Below are positions 3,802 through 43,815 of a stretch of DNA of 64,000 nucleotides, piece after piece. The notes under the pieces were generated by a model that worked only from the letters and a program-made list of their open reading frames with translations, made no database searches and was not told the DNA's origin. Each line of letters opens with the position of its first letter. Position 1 is the first letter of the stretch. The stretch spans positions 1,303-65,302 of the forward strand of contig JACPEV010000009.1 in NCBI GenBank assembly GCA_016183325.1. Direction: 5' to 3'. The translations under genes and the position numbers were made by a program. This stretch comes from Candidatus Curtissbacteria bacterium (lineage in GTDB: Bacteria; Patescibacteriota; Microgenomatia; Curtissbacterales; GWA2-41-24).

Positions 3802-4623
3802 ATGTTTAAAATTTCCAAACCCACAACTCCAGGACAAAGATTTAAATCGACTTTATCCTTCGACGAGATAACAAAAACCAAACCGGAAAAATCCTTAATC
3901 GCAAGGCTTAACAAGACAGCTGGTAGGTCGCTGGGAATTGTTACAGTCAGAGGAAAGGGGGGAGGTGCCAAACGAAATTTAAGATTTATAGATTTTAAAA
4001 GAGATAAAAGAGATGTCGTGGCAAAAGTAGCGGCGATTGAATACGATCCAAACAGATCTGCCAATATTGCTCTCCTTCACTATGTTGATGGAGAAAAAAG
4101 ATACATCCTATCCCCGGTTGGTCTTGCTGTTGGGCAGGAAGTTATCGCCAGCGAAAAAGCGCCAATTAAGACCGGTGATGCCCTGCCGCTTGGCAAAATG
4201 CCAGTTGGCACTGTCATTCATAATATTGAGCTTACGCCAGGTAGCGGTGGTCAAATTGTCAGATCTGCCGGCGTCGGTGCAATCGTTGCCGCCAGAGAAG
4301 GAGAATATGTCCACGTTAAACTTCCTTCAAAAGAGATTCGCAAGATTAGTGCTGCAAGTTTTGCCACAGTAGGTCAAGTTGGCAACGTTGATTGGAAAAA
4401 TATCAAAATCGGAAAAGCAGGAAGATCAAGACATATGGGTAAAAGGCCTAAAGTTCGAGGAGTTGCCATGGATCCAAGATCACATCCCCACGGTGGTGGA
4501 GAAGGCAGATCCGGCACGGGTATGCATCCCAAAACCAGAACAGGCAAACCTGCCATGGGCAAAAAAACCCGAAATCCCAACAAACCATCAAGTAGATTTA
4601 TTCTTGAGAGGAGAAAGAAATGA
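3802..4623 (+). CDS. rplB: 50S ribosomal protein L2
   Basis: ...[34 protein letters not shown]... L2. Confidence 0.95.
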
Positions 4624-6765: not shown

Positions 6766-7173
6766 ATGTTAGCTCCCAAAAGAGCAAAATATAGAAAACA
6801 ATTTAGAGATAAAAGAAGGGGTATTGCTACTCGTCGCACAACTTTGGCTTTTGGAGCATATGGGCTTAAAAGTCTGGAAAGTGCATGGATAACCGCAAGG
6901 CAAATAGAAGCGGCCAGGCGAGCAATGACTCATTACACCAAAAGAGGCGGACGCATCTGGATAAGAATTTTTCCGGATAAACCCGTTACTAAAAAACCGG
7001 CAGAAACAAGAATGGGTTCCGGTAAAGGTGATGTCAATGAGTATGTTTCTGTAGTCAAACCTGGAATGGTGCTTTTTGAAATGGGTGCAATTGACAGCCA
7101 AACTGCCCAGGAAGCTTTAAAACTTGCCGCTTTTAAGTTACCGATCAAAACAAAAATAATAACCAGAATATAA
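6766..7173 (+). CDS. rplP: 50S ribosomal protein L16
   Basis: [19 protein letters not shown]... L16. Confidence 0.95.
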
Positions 7174-7186
7174 ATTATTTGAAATT

Positions 7187-7402
7187 ATGAAAAAGAAAGA
7201 AAAAGAAGAACTAAAAGCTAAAAATACAAGTCAACTGAAAGAAATTCTAAAAGAAAAAGAAAAGGGGCTTATTGTTGATCAAATAGAGTTGAAAATGGGC
7301 AAAATTAAGAATGTTCATATTGTTCATAATAAGAAAAAGGATATTGCGACAGTTAAAACAATGCTAAAAGCCGCAATCTTTAAAGAACAACAAGAAAAAT
7401 AA
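7187..7402 (+). CDS. rpmC: 50S ribosomal protein L29
   Basis: Position between L16 and S17; L29-like helical Lys/Glu-rich sequence. Confidence 0.8.
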   Translation: MKKKEKEELKAKNTSQLKEILKEKEKGLIVDQIELKMGKIKNVHIVHNKKKDIATVKTMLKAAIFKEQQEK

Positions 7403-7408
7403 ATATCT

Positions 7409-7639
7409 ATGCCACAAATAAGGGTGGGAAAAGTTATTGGAACCAAAATGCAAAAAACAATAATTGTTGAAATTATGGGAGTGACAAAACACCCACTTTA
7501 TAAAAAACAAATTAAAAGGACTACCAGACTCAAAGTTCATGACGAATTGGGTGTTAAGGTAGGCCAAAAAGTAAAAATTCAAGAAACGAGACCAATTTCA
7601 AAAGATGTCCACTTTAAAACACTGGAGGTTGTGTCATAA
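7409..7639 (+). CDS. rpsQ: 30S ribosomal protein S17
   Basis: MPQIRVGKVIGTKMQKTIIVEI... S17. Confidence 0.9.
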   Translation: MPQIRVGKVIGTKMQKTIIVEIMGVTKHPLYKKQIKRTTRLKVHDELGVKVGQKVKIQETRPISKDVHFKTLEVVS

Positions 7640-8008
7640 ATGCTTGCCAGAAGATCACATTTAACAGTTGCAGACAATAGTGGCGCCAAAAGCTTAGTCG
7701 TAATAGGTTCAGAAAAGGGCTCTGGTAAAAGATTTATTCGACTTGGTGAAATTGCAACTTGTGTAGTCAAAGGAGCAGCTCCATTAGGTCAGGTAAAAGA
7801 TCATCAGATTGTTAAGGCGACAATTGTCAGGACTAAAAAAGAAACTCGGCGAGCCGATGGGTCATATATCAGATTTTCAGACAATGCCGCAGTTGTTTGT
7901 GATGATAATGGTATTCCGGCAGGAACCAGGATTTTCGGTCCGGTTGCCCAGGAGCTTAAACAAAAAGGTTTTACAAAAATTATTTCAATGGCTAAGGAGG
8001 TTTACTGA
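7640..8008 (+). CDS. rplN: 50S ribosomal protein L14
   Basis: ...LTVADNSGAK... L14. Confidence 0.95.
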   Translation: MLARRSHLTVADNSGAKSLVVIGSEKGSGKRFIRLGEIATCVVKGAAPLGQVKDHQIVKATIVRTKKETRRADGSYIRFSDNAAVVCDDNGIPAGTRIFGPVAQELKQKGFTKIISMAKEVY

Positions 8009-20379: not shown

Positions 20380-20661
20380 TTATACTTCTGTTATTTTACC
20401 CCTTTGTCTCAATATTTGTAGATATTCATTATTAGAAAGATCACATCTTTTGTAATCATTTAATCGTGTAATGCTTAAACCTAGTTGTTTTGCTATGAGT
20501 GGTATATCTTTATCCTTTATTCCTGAATGGGAGCGTTTGGTTTTAAGTATGTATTTATTTCGATAAAAAATGTGATAAAAATAATGGTCGTTAGTATCTT
20601 CTTCTACTGTAAAAACTTCTTTTAGTTTAGTAATTATCTGATTAAAATCATGGATTCTCAT
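20380..20661 (-). CDS. HicA-like putative toxin (93 aa)
   Basis: KRSHSGIKDKDIPLIAKQLGLS resembles the HicA/YcfA ...H...GTLksIlKQaGL C-terminal signature; last gene of a 3-gene minus-strand operon. Confidence 0.4.
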   Translation of the reverse strand: MRIHDFNQIITKLKEVFTVEEDTNDHYFYHIFYRNKYILKTKRSHSGIKDKDIPLIAKQLGLSITRLNDYKRCDLSNNEYLQILRQRGKITEV

Positions 20662-21044
20662 TACCTTACGTTTTCAAGATAGTCTCTTAAAAATTCCCAA
20701 TACTTCACAGCAGAAGGTCCAAGACGATTTTCACCCACATCTTTTAACTTTTTATACAATAAAGCAATTTGCAACTTAATATTAGCGAGTGCTTTTTCCA
20801 AATCTTTGTCTCTTGCCCATAATTCAAGCTCATTTTGTTCAACATAATAATCTTCTCCGTCGAAATTTACGTTGAAATATATGGGTTTATGTAAAAGTAA
20901 GTTGGAGTCCAGACTATAGATAGAATTAATACCTGCGATTGCTATGTCTGGGGCAATAAATTTAGGCGTACTATTAGATAAAGTTCCGACGCTGTAAATC
21001 CACTGACTGAACTCGTCGGATTTTTTAGTATAATTTATGTCCAT
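20661..21044 (-). CDS. HicB/UPF0150-like domain protein (putative antitoxin partner, 127 aa)
   Basis: HKPIYFNVNFDGEDYYVEQNELELWARDKDLEKALANIKLQIALL matches the HicB N-domain pattern kYpvv..e.d.GgY.a.vPdLpGc...G.TleEAlen.keAi; 1-nt start/stop overlap with the downstream gene. Confidence 0.4.
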   Translation of the reverse strand: MDINYTKKSDEFSQWIYSVGTLSNSTPKFIAPDIAIAGINSIYSLDSNLLLHKPIYFNVNFDGEDYYVEQNELELWARDKDLEKALANIKLQIALLYKKLKDVGENRLGPSAVKYWEFLRDYLENVR

Positions 21045-21046
21045 GG

Positions 21047-21334
21047 TTATTTATCCTCCTTTTTTTCCAGCTGGCTCCTAAGAGCTTCTAGAAATGCTTT
21101 TGCGATTTCTAAAGGTAAAACTATCTCTGACAACACTGGAATTCTTGTTTCTTTCTCTTTTTTTATTTTTTCTAATTCCCCTGGGTTAGCTGGTGGTTTT
21201 AGATCACAAAATTTTATAGATACATCTAAACCAGTTTTTGTTACCTCAACGTAGTTTGAATAAATACGCTGACTTCCGTCTGGGCGGTAAGCGATAATTT
21301 TTAATGGTACAGGCTGTTCATTTTTATTGGCCAT
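21047..21334 (-). CDS. DUF3467-like small protein (95 aa)
   Basis: YSNYVEVTKTGLDVSIKFCDL ... RIPVLSEIVLPLEIAKAFLEALRSQLEK fits the DUF3467 pattern from memory; first gene of the 3-gene operon. Confidence 0.35.
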   Translation of the reverse strand: MANKNEQPVPLKIIAYRPDGSQRIYSNYVEVTKTGLDVSIKFCDLKPPANPGELEKIKKEKETRIPVLSEIVLPLEIAKAFLEALRSQLEKKEDK

Positions 21335-21492
21335 ATCTCCCTTTTAGTCTGACCGAAAGATACCACAGTTGCAACAACTACTTCAAGAAGGGATCATTTT
21401 AACAACTCACATCCACTTCCGATGTGAACCAGCTTTGCACATCGGCAATTAATTACGAATCCAAAGTCGACAATACTGCACGAACTTCGAAT

Positions 21493-21612
21493 TTAAATAA
21501 TTGGTCGACCGAATTTTATTAAATTTTCTTTCTTTTCTCTTCGCCATTTTTTGATTTGAGCTTCCCTTTGTCTTGCTTTTTTCAGTGTAGGATATTCTTT
21601 ATATACGAGTCC
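21493..21612 (-). pseudogene. C-terminal remnant (~39 aa) of a small GIY-YIG (UPF0213-type) nuclease gene
   Basis: GLVYKEYPTLKKARQREAQIKKWRREKKENLIKFGRPII matches the GIY-YIG C-terminus (ELVYyEef.tkseAlkrEkqiKkWsRaKKeaLI). The upstream in-frame sequence is tRNA-derived (GSSPASPT); no GIY...YIG N-terminal half in any frame. Confidence 0.5.
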
Positions 21613-21615
21613 AAA

Positions 21616-21668
21616 AGTCGGAGAGGCGGGACTCGAACCCGCGACCCCCAGACCCCCAGCCTGGTGTG
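21616..21668 (-). other. tRNA-like 3' fragment (anticodon arm CCAGG-CTGGGGG-TCTGG, canonical T-arm GCGGGTTCGAGTCCCGC, 3' acceptor strand) with no 5' acceptor/D-arm
   Basis: Minus-strand reading ...CCAGGCTGGGGGTCTGGGGGTCGCGGGTTCGAGTCCCGCCTCTCCGA; no complementary GGAGAGG within 150 nt. Confidence 0.35.
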
Positions 21669-21671
21669 CTA

Positions 21672-21734
21672 GCCTCAGCCAAAGGCTGATCGTCCTCTGG
21701 ACAAAACTGTCAGCCAAAGGCTGATCGTCCTCTG
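21672..21734. repeat. Tandem duplication of a 28-nt unit (tcagccaaaggctgatcgtcctctggac x2, 7-nt spacer)
   Basis: Exact copies at 21672-21699 and 21707-21734, adjacent to the tRNA-like fragment. Confidence 0.8.
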
Positions 21735-21766
21735 GACGAAACTGGAAACAACAAATCTTGCTAAAT

Positions 21767-21843
21767 ATGTCGGGGTACTCGGTTCCGCCCCGAGGACCTC
21801 ACGCACCCCATGCGTGCGCTCTGCCTATCTGAGCTATACCCCG
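21767..21843 (-). tRNA. tRNA-Pro (anticodon GGG); T-loop non-canonical (GGCGGAA)
   Basis: Minus strand CGGGGTA-TA-GCTC-AGATAGGCA-GAGC-G-CACGC-ATGGGGT-GCGTG-AGGTC-CTCGG-GGCGGAA-CCGAG-TACCCCG-A; 7-bp acceptor, 4-bp D, 5-bp anticodon and 5-bp T stems all pair; no encoded CCA. Confidence 0.7.
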
Positions 21844-21959
21844 AACAGAATGAGGGGTATATCAGACGTAGTGCTGATTTACCCCGTCTTGGTAAAGAGG
21901 ATTATATTTTATCACTAAACGTTTGACAATAAAATCTGCCCCATTTCATAATTAAAATA

Positions 21960-22200
21960 ATAACTCATGTTACGCAAACTTCCTTGTCATTCCCATGAAA
22001 ATGGGAATCTATATGCATAAAGAGTCGGGATTCCCGCTCTGGAATTAATAAATTCCGAGTCGTAGACTTACGCGGGAATGACAATGCGTAAGGTGAGATA
22101 ATAACTATGACGATACGAATCATCGTAGTTAAAGTTCGGCTGACCTTACCCCACTTTGGTAACAGATGATGATAGTCTTCAGATAAAAAGGGCAAAGTTC
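21960..22200. other. Highly structured ~240-nt noncoding region between tRNA-Pro and recA (multiple gggaat/attccc inverted repeats)
   Basis: ttacgca...ttgtcattccc (21963-21995) pairs with gggaatgacaa tgcgtaa (22073-22090); internal palindromes ggaattaataaattcc and acgatacgaatcatcgt; only a spurious 76-aa antisense ORF. Confidence 0.4.
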
Positions 22201-22266
22201 GGTACTTGTATTTTTAGCTAATCTATAGTAAAACTAGTCTGAATTCACACTGCCCAGATCTTGTCA

Positions 22267-23337
22267 ATGACAGTCTCCGATGCCAAAAAGCAAGCCATTT
22301 TAACTGCCATTTCCCAAATCGAAAAAGCCTACGGAAAGGGTTCCATCATGAAGATGGGCGAACATATTGGCAAATTAGATGTCGAAGTTTTGAGTACCGG
22401 TGTCTTACCGGTTGATTTGGCTCTGGGAGTTGGCGGTCTGCCAAGGGGCCGAATTATTGAAATATTCGGACCGGAAGCATCCGGTAAAACCACTTTAACA
22501 CTCTCGCTAATTGCTCAAGCGCAAAAAAACGGAGGTACCGCAGCTTTAATCGATGCCGAACACGCCCTCGACCCTCTTTGGGCTCAAAAGGTTGGCGTAA
22601 ACCTTGATGATCTTTTGATTTCTCAGCCGGATACTGGTGAACAGGCACTGGAAATCGCCGAAACCTTAATTCGCTCGGGTGCGGTAGATGCTATAGTAGT
22701 TGATTCTGTTGCGGCCCTAGTTCCCAGGGCAGAAATTGAAGGCGAGATGGGTGATTCCATGATGGGTGTTCAGGCAAGGTTAATGTCTCAAGCTCTAAGA
22801 AAATTAACAGGGGCAATTTCCAAATCCAAAACAGTTGCCATCTTCACCAATCAACTAAGAGAAAAAATAGGAGTTATGTTTGGTAATCCTGAAACTACTC
22901 CGGGTGGCCGTGCTCTTAAGTTTTACTCATCTGTCCGGCTCGACACCAGGAAGATCGAGAACATAAAAGAAGGAGATCGCGTAATCGGGTCACGTCATCG
23001 TGTCAAGGTCGTCAAGAATAAAGTCGCACCCCCATTTAGAATAGCTGAATTTGATATCACAGGCGAGGAAGGAATCTCCAGAGAAGGTGGTCTTCTGGAC
23101 GTTGCATTAGAACTTGGTTTAGTTACAAAATCTGGAGCGTTCTTCAGGTGGAACTCAAAACTCATTGGCCAGGGGAGAGAAAGCGCAAAGGCTTATTTTA
23201 CAGAACACAAAAAAGAGGCTCAAAGTCTTGAAAAAGAAATCTGGGCCAAGGTTAAAAAAGGTCTTCCCCAAAAACCTGTTGTGACAAATTCAGAATCCGA
23301 AGACGAGGGAATCCTGGAAGAGATAGTTGCTGCCTAA
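22267..23337 (+). CDS. recA: Recombinase RecA
   Basis: GPEASGKTT Walker A and full-length RecA similarity; ATG at 22267 preferred over TTG at 22261. Confidence 0.95.
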
Positions 23338-43307: not shown

Positions 43308-43374
43308 AAACAGCTTCTCGCCAATTTTGAAAAATTACCCATTTCTGGTAAAATATATGTTGCTTTTGGGAAGA

Positions 43375-43715
43375 AGAACGATCGCCCCGTACCATACGGT
43401 ACGGGGAGGAAAGTCCAGACAGCAGGAAGCAAAGGATCCCGCGTAAGCGGGGACTAGAAATAGCTGGTGTCTTGGCTCTTTACCCGCATGCGGAGCCAAG
43501 AACAGGTCTTGAGTTTACAAGACTTGAGAGCAACAGAGACGAGCGGGAGTGAAACGGGCAATCCTACTTGCTGCAACCCAGATTTGAACCGATCTAGCCA
43601 TAGGCTGGTCAGTCTTTGGCTAATGACCATGCTTCCGGGAGGTTCAGAGTAGGGGCATCCTGTTAAAAACCAGGACGAAGTGGCTAATTCGTCATTTCGA
43701 GATAGATGATCGTAA
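43375..43715 (+). ncRNA. rnpB: Probable RNase P RNA
   Basis: ccccgtacc-ata-cggtacgggg hairpin followed by GGAGGAAAGTCCAG (P4 5'-strand-like); ...GCAACAGAGAC...GTGAAACGGGC...; ~340 nt of hairpins with only a spurious 61-aa ORF. Confidence 0.5.
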
Positions 43716-43815
43716 AAACCAAGTCTGACTTGGTAAAACAGAATCTGGCTTACATCTTCCCAAAAGCATTTTTAAAGAATTTGACTAATTTTGTCAAAGG
43801 TGTAATCATATTTGT

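What the first reader, a model, noticed from the sequence alone, without database searches (positions are those of the whole stretch)
21493..21734. GIY-YIG gene remnant fused to a tRNA-like 3' half, plus a tandem 28-bp duplication
Seen directly: on the minus strand a canonical T-arm (GCGGGTTCGAGTCCCGC), a 3' acceptor strand and an anticodon arm (loop CTGGGGG, anticodon GGG) are present. No complementary 5' acceptor strand or D-arm exists within 150 nt. Immediately 3' of it the reading frame continues into a 39-aa peptide matching only the C-terminus of small GIY-YIG (UPF0213) proteins; no GIY/YIG N-terminal half is encoded. Just upstream a 28-nt unit is duplicated exactly in tandem. Taken together this looks like the scar of an integration/excision or homing-endonuclease event at a tRNA-Pro gene, with an intact tRNA-Pro(GGG) 100 nt away.
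Basis: partly seen in the sequence, partly recalled or inferred. Interest (0 to 1): 0.55.

Follow-up and report, generated by a model that had tools for sequence, protein, structure and literature searches.

The report
Decayed tRNA-Pro/GIY-YIG cassette with double-hairpin inserts
This is the wreck of a proline-tRNA gene and the small nuclease gene attached to it in a Curtissbacteria genome, and the "duplicated 28-mer" inside it is two copies of an apparently undescribed 30-base double-hairpin element that also turns up, letter for letter, in tRNA genes, RNase P RNA and protein genes of other ultra-small bacteria.

Summary
A related Curtissbacteria contig (L147) holds the same locus intact: recA, 77 nt, tRNA-Pro(GGG), a 78-nt leader, an 86-aa UPF0213-type GIY-YIG gene.

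The window differs from it in three ways:
- tRNA nt 1-12 and its upstream DNA are replaced by about 456 nt carrying a second tRNA-Pro(GGG)-like gene with an abnormal T-loop (GGCGGAA).
- A 30-nt double-hairpin element, TCGTCCAGAGGACGATCAGCCTTTGGCTGA, sits in the D-loop. It was then duplicated with 5 flanking bases, giving a 35-nt period.
- About 200 nt (leader plus 42 codons) were deleted across an 11-nt microhomology. This fuses the tRNA 3' end to the GIY-YIG C-terminus.

So it is a nested selfish-DNA scar of homing-endonuclease type, not an integrase att scar.

Wider pattern:
- 9 of 10 members of this GIY-YIG subfamily lie just downstream of tRNA-Pro.
- The 28-nt core of the element is exact in 39 metagenome contigs: in D-loops of tRNA fragments beside GIY-YIG genes, in frame in proteins, and (a diverged copy) in this genome's RNase P RNA.
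- Variants keep both hairpins through compensatory changes.
- No description of the element was found in the literature searched.

The parts
21901..21929 (-). Sigma-70-like promoter match TTGTCA-17-TATAAT, 58 nt upstream of the second tRNA-Pro-like gene
   Evidence: Consensus scan, 11 of 12 matches. A consensus match only, not evidence of function.
21844..22200 (-). 357-nt block with no counterpart in the intact relative. It is part of the ~456-nt segment that replaced the tRNA's upstream region and nt 1-12. It contains a ~100-nt stretch with perfect 11-nt terminal inverted repeats (21984-22084) and two TTACCNNNNNGGGGTAA motifs.
   Evidence: Homology to L147 stops at window 22201 and resumes at 21674. 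Repeats (D3, I9). The ACGGGGTAAAGG motif also flanks the inserted tRNA in L142.
21770..21843 (-). Second tRNA-Pro(GGG)-like gene ('tRNA*'): perfect cloverleaf stems but T-loop GGCGGAA
   Evidence: Rfam RF00005 43 bits, against 51-71 bits for most other CPR tRNAs and 44 for one. ARAGORN negative. Cloverleaf-like minimum-energy fold with acceptor, anticodon and T stems intact and a weakly paired D arm. Its anticodon arm and T stem match the tRNA inserted in L142 and the remnant in L150.
21745..21769 (-). 25-nt spacer belonging to the incoming tRNA* block
   Evidence: Weak similarity to the right flank of the L142 insert. No counterpart in L147.
21710..21744 (-). 35-nt unit 1: CAGTT plus the 30-nt double-hairpin element E1 (21739-21710). 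Its second hairpin plus the downstream CAGTTTTGTC scores as terminator-like.
   Evidence: Covariance model R1, 52 bits.
21675..21709 (-). 35-nt unit 2: tRNA nt 13-17 (CAGTT) plus element E2 (21704-21675, TT instead of TC at its start). It is inserted between D-loop nt 17 and G18.
   Evidence: Same insertion point as in six other tRNA fragments.
21618..21674 (-). Resident tRNA-Pro(GGG) nt 18-73: D-loop 3' part, 3' D-stem strand, anticodon arm, variable loop, T arm, 3' acceptor strand and discriminator
   Evidence: 97% identical over 66 nt to the intact tRNA-Pro(GGG) of L147. 82% to the recA-adjacent tRNA of L137.
21609..21619 (-). Deletion junction GACTTTTGGAC. It aligns both to the start of the leader and to GIY-YIG codons ~43-46 of the intact locus.
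   Evidence: The two blastn segments overlap here by 11 nt.
21493..21617 (-). GIY-YIG (UPF0213-type) gene remnant: the last ~41 codons plus the stop codon
   Evidence: 78% DNA identity to L147 1626-1784.
21466..21492 (-). Conserved 3' end of the GIY-YIG cassette (ATTCGAAGTTCGTGCAGTATTGTCGAC)
   Evidence: Present after the stop codon in L007, L144, L147 and as a relic in L004/L017.
21451..21465 (-). TTTGGATTCGTAATT: a direct repeat of the sequence that follows the tRNA 3' end (the trailer or leader start)
   Evidence: Read directly. Analogous flanking direct repeats occur in L015 (109 nt), L018 (19 nt) and L004 (81 nt).
43594..43623 (-). Third, diverged copy of the double-hairpin element, inserted inside the RNase P RNA gene (43366-43767, + strand)
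   Evidence: Model R1, 29 bits, E 3e-5. Infernal shows it as a ~31-nt insertion in RF00010 between model positions 245 and 246.

Best explanation
The region is a dead, nested scar in the variable rpsI-recA interval of a Candidatus Curtissbacteria genome.

Ancestral state (shown by an intact relative): recA, 77 nt, tRNA-Pro(GGG), a ~78-nt structured leader, an 86-aa UPF0213-type GIY-YIG gene, and a conserved 3' end ...GTCGAC.

This tRNA-plus-nuclease unit behaves like a free-standing homing-endonuclease cassette that targets the 3' side of tRNA-Pro genes. That behaviour is inferred from its distribution, from the target duplications that flank it and from presence/absence among relatives. Cleavage itself has not been shown.

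The end states are shown; the order is inferred.
1. A ~456-nt block carrying its own promoter-like site and another tRNA-Pro(GGG)-like gene replaced the 31 nt upstream of the resident tRNA and its nt 1-12. This killed the resident tRNA or made it redundant.
2. A 30-nt double-hairpin element inserted between D-loop nt 17 and G18. The same site is hit in other disabled tRNA fragments.
3. Slippage duplicated the element together with the 5 preceding bases, giving the 35-nt period.
4. About 200 nt (the leader plus GIY-YIG codons 1-42) were deleted between two 11-nt near-repeats (GACTTTTCGAC and ACATTTGAAC). This abuts the tRNA 3' end to the GIY-YIG C-terminus in an open frame.

Neither the tRNA fragment nor the nuclease remnant can function.

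The 30-mer is a member of a mobile or copy-corrected family of small palindromic elements in Patescibacteria. Its hairpins, rather than its sequence alone, are conserved. It survives where it is tolerated: dead tRNA pieces, loops of structured RNAs, and hydrophilic loops of proteins.
For: Intact orthologous locus and breakpoints
- L146/L147 hold the intact locus.
- Three colinear blastn segments link L147 to the window: recA region at 73% identity, tRNA nt 18-76 at 97%, GIY-YIG codon ~43 to the cassette end at 78%. The last two overlap by 11 nt in the window.
- The rpsI ... tRNA-Pro(GGG) ... recA order is also seen in L137 and L140.

GIY-YIG cassette behaves as a tRNA-targeting element
- 9 of 10 subfamily members lie 78-230 nt downstream of a co-oriented tRNA-Pro(TGG or GGG), among unrelated neighbouring genes.
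- The cassettes are flanked by direct repeats of the tRNA 3' end: 109 nt in L015, 19 nt in L018.
- L137 has the tRNA without the gene.
- Across 84 GIY-YIG genes, all 11 adjacent tRNAs are on the same strand.

A second tRNA-Pro displacing a cassette-linked one recurs
- L142 against L140: same species, identical flanks, with a tRNA inserted in the anticodon loop of the resident tRNA.
- L150 shows a new tRNA-Pro next to a decayed remnant.

The 30-mer
- Its 28-nt core is exact in 39 metagenome contigs, giving 33 distinct contexts.
- In 7 independent loci it lies between N17 and G18 of a tRNA fragment, in either orientation, with no target duplication. The uninterrupted D-loop is present in the adjacent intact tRNA.
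- It forms a 10-aa in-frame insert in a ComF protein that 11 orthologues lack.
- A diverged copy lies in RNase P RNA.
- It folds as two hairpins, z -3.5.
- Compensatory changes keep 98.8% of cells paired, against 7-49% in slid controls.

Assembly
- Two independent assemblies are identical to the window across the locus, and a third across most of it.
Against: - The order of the four events is inferred, not shown.
- Nuclease activity and target specificity of the 84-86-aa proteins are untested. They lack a separate DNA-binding domain. A 2024 survey of CPR rRNA inserts judged GIY-YIG ORFs there to lie outside typical homing (PMC11270868).
- A conserved tRNA-Pro/GIY-YIG transcription unit with a cellular role would also give the adjacency.
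- The origin of the 357-nt block is unknown.
- One short Logan contig (L014) shows different sequence to the left of element 1. This could be a real variant rather than a k=31 chimera.
- The 30-mer is rare: 1 related copy in 466 kb of other CPR DNA. The set of 39 contigs was collected by exact match, so the apparent uniformity of the element is partly ascertainment.
Confidence: 0.8

Rival explanations
1. Integrase-type scar. A tyrosine-recombinase island integrated into, or excised from, tRNA-Pro. That would leave a duplicated 3' tRNA half as an att repeat, with the GIY-YIG piece as island or flanking DNA.
For: - Partial 3' tRNA copies are the classic signature of such islands.
- Short direct repeats of the tRNA end do flank GIY-YIG cassettes in relatives.
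Against: - There is no integrase or recombinase between rpsI and recA. The interval holds an ABC transporter, DUF3467 and two small unknown ORFs.
- The fragment and the neighbouring tRNA are 62% identical, so they are not att copies.
- The fragment extends into the D-loop.
- The fusion to GIY-YIG is explained base for base by a microhomology deletion relative to L147.
Confidence: 0.04
2. A functional unconventional tRNA gene: split, permuted or intron-containing. On this reading the 5' half lies elsewhere, or the 30-mers are removed from the transcript.
For: - The anticodon arm, T arm and 3' acceptor strand are perfectly formed and 97% identical to a functional-looking orthologue.
- CPR RNA genes are known to carry many insertions (PMC11270868).
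Against: - No matching 5' acceptor or D-stem strand exists in 64 kb.
- ARAGORN and Rfam find nothing here.
- The insert is in the D-loop, where no bacterial splicing system is known to act (my own knowledge).
- The 3' end runs straight into a truncated ORF with no trailer.
- The same element sits in obviously truncated tRNA 5' pieces elsewhere.
Confidence: 0.02
3. Exapted scar. The wreck is not just junk. The element hairpins, and the T-run created by the duplication, now terminate or process the transcript of the upstream tRNA-Pro-like gene.
For: - A promoter-like site (11 of 12 matches) lies 58 nt upstream of tRNA*.
- The only terminator-like site in the 1-kb region scanned (21300-22300) is hairpin 2 of element 1 followed by CAGTTTTGTC. 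That T-run exists only because of the duplication plus the C-to-T change in element 2.
Against: - These are consensus matches at chance frequency: 1 terminator found, 0.9 expected.
- tRNA* itself has a T-loop that breaks the conserved T54-A58 and G18-psi55 contacts, so its function is doubtful.
- There are no expression data.
Confidence: 0.12
4. Assembly artefact. The repeated 30-mer caused a chimeric join, so the tRNA fragment, the repeats and the GIY-YIG remnant are not truly adjacent.
For: L014 (Logan assembly, k=31) has a different sequence immediately to the left of element 1. The 30-mer plus one base is exactly the length that can mislead a 31-mer graph.
Against: - L012 matches the window at 100% identity over 714 nt across the whole locus. 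L013 and L014 match it at 100% on the tRNA/GIY-YIG side.
- Both outer junctions are colinear with the intact locus L147.
- The same architecture recurs in unrelated contigs from many projects.
Confidence: 0.03

Closest known systems
Free-standing GIY-YIG homing endonuclease genes, for example phage T4 segB in the tRNA gene cluster (PMC2330249)
   Same: - A small GIY-YIG gene sits beside tRNA genes.
- It is found at the same target in different genomic backgrounds.
- It shows presence/absence among relatives.
- Flanking target sequence is duplicated or co-converted.
   Different: - The host is a cellular chromosome of Patescibacteria, not a phage.
- The protein is only 84-86 aa: a bare UPF0213/Slx1-like catalytic domain with no DNA-binding domain.
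- Cleavage has not been shown.
- The cassette carries a conserved leader hairpin.
UPF0213 / YhbQ-type small GIY-YIG proteins (PDB 1zg2, 1ywl)
   Same: Best solved-structure matches to full-length relatives: E 5e-10 and 3e-6. Same size and motif layout.
   Different: - The window keeps only the C-terminal ~41 residues, and the catalytic GIY and YIG motifs are gone.
- I know of no reported tRNA linkage for UPF0213 proteins. That is my own knowledge, and only a weak literature check was possible.
Mitochondrial double-hairpin elements and repetitive hairpin-forming elements (Allomyces, sponges; PMC2800124) and yeast mitochondrial GC clusters (PMC4478555)
   Same: - Tens of nucleotides long, with two adjacent hairpins, G+C-richer than the host.
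- No target duplication.
- Found in intergenic DNA, rRNA loops and occasionally ORFs.
- Stems are conserved.
   Different: - This is a bacterial (Patescibacteria) genome.
- Copy density is low.
- The 28-nt core is identical across many different organisms.
- There is a repeated hit at one precise D-loop position of tRNA fragments next to GIY-YIG genes.
Rickettsia palindromic elements (RPE)
   Same: Palindromic repeats inserted in frame in protein-coding genes and in RNA genes of reduced-genome bacteria. (My own knowledge; Rickettsia repeats are discussed in PMC3733652.)
   Different: RPEs are roughly 100-150 nt and restricted to one genus. This element is 30 nt and spread across CPR lineages. 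No sequence relation was tested.
REP elements, CGTC-tagged superfamily (PMC3733652)
   Same: - A 20-40-nt palindromic unit.
- It begins (T)CGTC.
- No dedicated transposase is known for CGTC REPs.
- Some copies are intragenic.
   Different: - Here CGTC is inside the stem, not an unpaired tag.
- The unit is two different hairpins.
- Copy number per genome is low: three in 64 kb, all in RNA genes or pseudogenes.
Non-intron insertion sequences in CPR rRNA genes, some encoding GIY-YIG proteins (PMC11270868)
   Same: - The same bacterial group.
- Insertions at the tops or bases of stem-loops of structured RNA genes.
- GIY-YIG ORFs in inserts that are neither group I nor group II introns.
   Different: That study covers rRNA only; the word tRNA does not occur in it. 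Neither the 30-mer nor the tRNA-fragment architecture is described there.

Membership tests
tRNA (Rfam RF00005), applied to the fragment 21618-21674 | Complete cloverleaf with paired 5' and 3' acceptor strands and a D-arm | tested here: not met
   ARAGORN and Infernal call nothing here. nt 1-12 are absent from the whole window. The D-loop is interrupted by 65 nt.
tRNA (Rfam RF00005), applied to the neighbour 21770-21843 | Score above the gathering threshold and a cloverleaf fold | tested here: met
   43 bits against a gathering score of 29. Cloverleaf-like minimum-energy fold with a weakly paired D arm.
tRNA (canonical elongator), applied to the neighbour 21770-21843 | Conserved T-loop T54-psi55-C56-R57-A58 | tested here: not met
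   The T-loop reads GGCGGAA. ARAGORN rejects the gene. Its score is below all but one of 30 CPR tRNAs scanned.
GIY-YIG nuclease domain (Pfam PF01541 / UPF0213) | N-terminal GIY and YIG motifs and the catalytic Arg/Glu core | tested here: not met
   Only profile positions 51-78 of 78 match, at E 0.0088, below the cut-off. Alignment A1 shows homology only from TFGLVY onward. No N-terminal half is found in any frame.
GIY-YIG nuclease domain (Pfam PF01541 / UPF0213) | C-terminal helix region homologous to family members | tested here: met
   E 2e-14 to P0001, with the QIKKWRREKKENLIKFG block invariant. 78% DNA identity to L147.
Free-standing homing endonuclease cassette | The same gene at the same target sequence in otherwise unrelated genomic neighbourhoods | tested here: met
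   9 of 10 subfamily members lie downstream of tRNA-Pro, with different neighbouring genes.
Free-standing homing endonuclease cassette | Presence/absence polymorphism at the target among relatives, and duplicated or displaced target pieces | tested here: met
   L137 lacks the gene and L147 has it at the recA-adjacent tRNA. Direct repeats of the tRNA 3' end occur in L015 and L018.
Free-standing homing endonuclease cassette | Site-specific cleavage of the cassette-free target | not testable with these tools
   Needs biochemistry.
Integrase-borne genomic island at a tRNA gene | A tyrosine or serine recombinase gene, and near-identical att repeats derived from the tRNA 3' end | tested here: not met
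   No recombinase in the interval. The two tRNA-Pro sequences are 62% identical.
REP / RAYT system | Unpaired GTAG or CGTC tag next to a palindrome; high-copy, mostly extragenic; an associated RAYT gene | tested here: inconclusive
   A CGTC is present but paired within the stem. Copy density is low and many copies are intragenic. RAYT genes were not searched for.
MITE | Terminal inverted repeats plus a target-site duplication | tested here: not met
   Filled and empty D-loops differ by exactly the 30 nt, with no duplication, in L100, L112 and L120. The termini share only TC...GA.
Double-hairpin / repetitive hairpin-forming elements | Two adjacent conserved hairpins; dispersed copies; no target duplication; tolerated in RNA genes and ORFs | tested here: met
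   This class is defined by description in organelles. No common origin with those elements is implied.

The most novel reading that the evidence does not exclude
The 30-nt double hairpin is an ultra-small mobile element of Patescibacteria. It is mobilised, or captured at breaks, by the bare-domain UPF0213-type GIY-YIG nucleases that themselves home to tRNA genes. Together they form a two-part selfish system.
- The nuclease cassettes split or duplicate tRNA genes.
- Replacement tRNA copies follow.
- The hairpin element marks or immunises the leftover target pieces, always between D-loop nt 17 and G18.
- The element occasionally lands in RNase P RNA, rRNA spacers and protein loops.
Probability: 0.25. 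Interest if true: 0.85.

Novelty: new variant of a known kind. Interest (0 to 1): 0.68.

Why it matters
The flagged locus itself is a pair of pseudogenes. Its value is that it exposes three linked processes in reduced CPR genomes that I could not find described:
- Small GIY-YIG cassettes tied to tRNA genes. They leave tRNA 3' or 5' fragments behind.
- Repeated arrival of replacement tRNA-Pro copies in or next to the disabled gene. One case is a within-species polymorphism of a tRNA inside a tRNA.
- A 30-nt double-hairpin element whose 28-nt core is identical across many organisms. It inserts without target duplication into D-loops, RNase P RNA and coding sequence, where it is read as RPEDDQPLAE or QPKADRPLDE.

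Practical consequences:
- tRNA and RNase P RNA finders miss or down-score the affected genes. ARAGORN found 0 tRNAs in this window, and its RNase P RNA falls below the Rfam gathering score.
- 31-mer assemblers can mis-join contigs at the element.

If the nuclease and the hairpin element are mechanistically linked, this would be a very small and experimentally tractable mobile system.

Tried and rejected
- **Split, permuted or tmRNA-like gene.** Rejected: only a local T-arm match to tmRNA, and no 5' half in the window.
- **N-terminal homology of the 74-aa ORF to GIY-YIG.** BLAST reported 95% coverage. Rejected as spurious: about 15% identity over that part in alignment A1, and that stretch is the tRNA fragment plus part of the second element copy.
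- **Known RNA family for the repeats or the leader.** Nothing in Rfam.
- **Element as vector, phage or plasmid sequence.** No match in IMG/VR, GenBank phages or PLSDB.
- **Literature search by sequence and peptide.** No hits. The search on YhbQ/UPF0213 was unproductive.
- **Exact RecA look-up.** It failed with the TTG start and was resolved through the homologue search.
- **L014 as evidence for a gene ending in the repeat.** Set aside as a probable 31-mer chimera, though not excluded.
- **Further copies of the 11-nt inverted-repeat stretch at 21984-22084.** None found.
- **Relatives of tRNA* with the same T-loop.** None in the loci held or in viral contigs.
- **First fuzzy-regex scan for element variants.** It missed copies and was replaced by a Hamming scan.
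Full report
**1. What is in the sequence**

All features lie on the minus strand.
- 21843-21770 is a tRNA-Pro(GGG)-like gene.
- A 25-nt spacer follows.
- Then come two 35-nt units, 97% identical to each other. Each is CAGTT plus a 30-mer.
- 21674-21618 reads GGCTAGCAC-A-CCAGG-CTGGGGG-TCTGG-GGGTC-GCGGG-TTCGAGT-CCCGC-CTCTCCG-A.
- With no gap, an open frame then encodes ...PTFGLVYKEYPTLKKARQREAQIKKWRREKKENLIKFGRPII*.

Checks against chance:
- The exact 28-mer occurs twice; none is expected.
- The T-arm 17-mer is unique; 0.04 is expected.
- ARAGORN finds no tRNA in the entire window.
- Rfam finds only the upstream gene, at 43 bits, plus a local T-arm match.
- The peptide matches Pfam GIY-YIG positions 51-78 of 78.
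- It also matches 84-86-aa GIY-YIG proteins of CPR bacteria at E down to 2e-14. Alignment shows real homology only from TFGLVY onward.

**2. Organism and synteny**

- RecA is 100% identical to a protein that NCBI names Candidatus Curtissbacteria.
- The window runs secY...rpoA-rplQ-rplM-rpsI, then a 3.8-kb variable interval, then recA-recX-rny.
- Two relatives hold a tRNA-Pro(GGG) in the same rpsI-recA interval. These are L137 (RecA 89% identical) and L140 (88%).

**3. The intact counterpart**

L146/L147 carry GIY-YIG protein P0003, and their RecA is 83% identical to the window's. The locus there is undamaged:
- recA
- 77 nt
- tRNA-Pro(GGG): CGGAGAGTGGCGCAGTTGGCTAGCGCACCAGGCTGGGGGTCTGGGGGTCGCGGGTTCGAGTCCCGCCTCTCCGA
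- a 78-nt leader
- an 86-aa GIY-YIG gene
- ...GTCCAATATTGTCGAC

blastn gives three colinear segments:

| L147 | Window | Identity | Content |
|---|---|---|---|
| 163-1317 | 23371-22201 | 73% | recA region |
| 1366-1431 | 21674-21609 | 97% | tRNA nt 18-76 plus 9 nt of leader |
| 1626-1784 | 21619-21466 | 78% | GIY-YIG codon ~43 to the cassette end |

What follows from this:
- The last two segments overlap by 11 nt in the window (GACTTTTGGAC). This is the signature of a deletion of about 200 nt between short near-repeats. It removed the leader and 42 codons.
- L147 1318-1365 (31 nt upstream plus tRNA nt 1-17) corresponds to 526 nt in the window. Those 526 nt are a 357-nt block, the second tRNA, the 25-nt spacer and the two [CAGTT + 30-mer] units.
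- The 5' acceptor strand predicted from the fragment (CGGAGAG) is exactly what the orthologue has. It is absent from the window.

**4. The GIY-YIG gene is a tRNA-linked cassette**

- Of ten distinct members of this subfamily, nine lie 78-230 nt downstream of a co-oriented tRNA-Pro (TGG or GGG). The nine are L004/5, L009, L015, L016, L018, L144, L147, L148 and L150. L007 is the exception.
- They come from Curtissbacteria, Roizmanbacteria, Yanofskybacteria, Minisyncoccia and others, with unrelated neighbouring genes.
- The cassettes are flanked by direct repeats of the tRNA 3' end: 109 nt in L015, 19 nt in L018, 81 nt in L004.
- In the window, CGACTTTGGATTCGT after the cassette end repeats the tRNA-end junction.
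- Among 84 GIY-YIG genes from species-representative genomes, all 11 tRNAs within 300 nt are on the same strand.
- A second subfamily shows the mirror arrangement: a tRNA 5' fragment (nt 1-26), then GIY-YIG, then the intact tRNA. The tRNAs are Pro, Asp, Ile and Val.
- Full-length relatives are closest to the UPF0213 structures 1zg2 and 1ywl.
- All leaders share a hairpin with loop GAGYTTRYCGA and four covarying pairs.

This is how a free-standing homing-endonuclease gene behaves. Cleavage itself is inferred, not shown.

**5. The second tRNA**

- tRNA* has perfect stems but the T-loop GGCGGAA. It scores 43 bits, against 51-71 for most other CPR tRNAs and 44 for one.
- Its anticodon arm and T stem match a tRNA-Pro(GGG) in L142. 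There it sits inside the anticodon loop of the resident tRNA-Pro(GGG).
- L140 and L143 encode the identical RecA protein, and L140 has 100% identical flanks around the tRNA; both have the resident gene intact.
- L150 shows a third case: a new tRNA-Pro, 12 nt, then a decayed tRNA-Pro remnant carrying a palindrome, then the leader and GIY-YIG.

So cassette-linked tRNA-Pro genes are repeatedly disabled and complemented by another copy.

**6. The '28-bp duplication'**

The unit is TCGTCC-AGA-GGACGA + TCAGCC-TTT-GGCTGA, two 6-bp hairpins.

Distribution:
- The 28-nt core is exact in 39 JGI metagenome contigs, giving 33 distinct contexts.
- It is absent from IMG/VR, GenBank phages and PLSDB.

In tRNA D-loops:
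- In seven independent loci it lies between D-loop N17 and G18 of a disabled tRNA piece. These are the window, L096, L099/L103, L100, L112, L120 and L046.
- It occurs in either orientation.
- The uninterrupted D-loop is visible in the adjacent intact tRNA, and there is no target duplication.

In and near genes:
- About 13 copies lie in frame within long reading frames; a few of these turn out to sit just upstream of the real start codon.
- Where the reading is clearly coding, the two hydrophilic frames are the ones used.
- ComF protein P0153 carries QPKADRPLDE where 11 orthologues have nothing.
- In two paralogues in L110, by eye from the printed flanks, the flanks are roughly 70-90% identical but the element is 30/30 identical.

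Structure and a third copy:
- Diverged copies keep both hairpins through compensatory changes. 98.8% of cells are paired, 8 cells carry double changes, and slid controls give 7-49%.
- A covariance model finds a third, diverged copy in the window at 43594-43623.
- Infernal shows that copy as a ~31-nt insertion inside the RNase P RNA gene, between P16 and P17. The gene consequently scores 78 bits, below the gathering score of 100.

**7. Interpretation and limits**

- The flagged region is a decayed composite; nothing in it is likely to function. The one possible exception is the hairpin plus T-run acting as a terminator for tRNA*, which is only a consensus match.
- The homing model for the cassette and the mobility of the 30-mer rest on comparative patterns.
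- What mobilises the 30-mer is unknown.
- Its tie to GIY-YIG-flanking tRNA fragments has two possible readings. It could be mechanistic: a nuclease cut site, or immunisation of the leftover target. Or it could simply reflect where insertions are tolerated.
- The literature held here has no mention of the sequence.
- The closest descriptions are:
  - GIY-YIG ORFs in non-intron inserts of CPR rRNA genes (PMC11270868)
  - mitochondrial double-hairpin elements (PMC2800124)
  - CGTC-type REPs (PMC3733652)
  - Rickettsia RPEs
  - T4 SegB (PMC2330249)

Noticed in passing
window 43366-43767 (+), insert at 43594-43623: The RNase P RNA gene (class A) scores only 78.4 bits, below the gathering score of 100, so the default Rfam scan missed it. 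It carries a ~31-nt diverged double-hairpin element inserted between P16 and P17.
   Followed up: partly
L142 780-1160 compared with L140 960-1150: A within-species polymorphism with identical flanks and identical RecA. One allele has an intact tRNA-Pro(GGG). In the other, that tRNA is split in the anticodon loop by a ~150-nt insert. The insert carries a different tRNA-Pro(GGG) flanked by inverted repeats GCCCCGTAAAAATTTT / AAATTTTACGGGG. There is also a 47-nt hairpin insert in the T-loop.
   Followed up: partly
L150 1264-1500: A new tRNA-Pro(TGG) is followed 12 nt later by a decayed tRNA-Pro remnant, which ARAGORN calls 'tRNA-???'. The middle of the remnant is a perfect palindrome, CCTGCCTGCCGGCAGGCAGG. 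The GIY-YIG leader and gene follow, and a tRNA-Gly overlaps the gene's end.
   Followed up: partly
L096 (minus strand) ~7140-7900; also L098 and L131: An old tRNA is cut into a 5' piece (30-mer in the D-loop) and a 3' piece (variant 30-mer in what appears to be the anticodon loop). The intervening insert consists of a GIY-YIG gene plus an intact tRNA-Val(GAC).
   Followed up: partly
L046 1290-2260: A Kerfeldbacteria locus with two GIY-YIG genes around tRNA-Tyr. It also holds a tRNA-Thr 5' fragment with a compensated variant of the 30-mer in its D-loop, and a displaced tRNA-Tyr 5' fragment carrying single 15-nt hairpin modules such as TCCGCCGTTGGCGGA.
   Followed up: partly
Leaders upstream of GIY-YIG start codons, for example L147 1455-1480, L144, L150, L009, L004, L015, L140: A conserved hairpin (GCCCT-GAGTTTATCGA-AGGGC) has an invariant loop core and 4 covarying stem pairs in 11 cassettes from two subfamilies. 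There is no Rfam match. It could be a regulatory RNA or a DNA recognition structure.
   Followed up: partly
L099 3170-3320, L122, L130, L132: Arrays of related 15-nt hairpin modules (GTCC/GGAC type and CAGCC/GGCTG type) are nested next to the canonical 30-mer. The same composite array occurs in two unrelated flanks: a tRNA fragment and upstream of a recA gene.
   Followed up: no
L014 1-60: This Logan contig joins a different sequence directly to element 1. That sequence is an open frame ending ...GDSSRGRSAFG*, with its end lying inside the element. It is either a k=31 chimera through the repeat or a real recombinant between two element copies.
   Followed up: partly
window 21984-22084: A ~100-nt stretch is bounded by perfect 11-nt inverted repeats TTGTCATTCCC / GGGAATGACAA, within the 357-nt block between recA and tRNA*. 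It is unique in the window and in all loci fetched. Two TTACCNNNNNGGGGTAA motifs lie at 21879-21895 and 22146-22162.
   Followed up: partly
window 20380-21334 (-): Three small co-directional genes lie downstream of the scar: DUF3467 (95 aa) and two with no family match (127 and 93 aa). Relatives have different cargo in this interval, so rpsI-recA is a variable islet.
   Followed up: partly
L110 1957-1984 and 3390-3417: Two tandem paralogous secreted-protein genes each carry the element at the same position, read as RPEDDQPLAE. By eye, the flanks are roughly 70-90% identical while the element is 30/30 identical. This suggests copy correction or independent targeted insertion.
   Followed up: no
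L102 ~4379-4406: The element lies in frame (QPKADRPLDE) in the C-terminal tail of ribosomal protein L15. That protein identification is my reading of the translated sequence; no family search was run on it.
   Followed up: no
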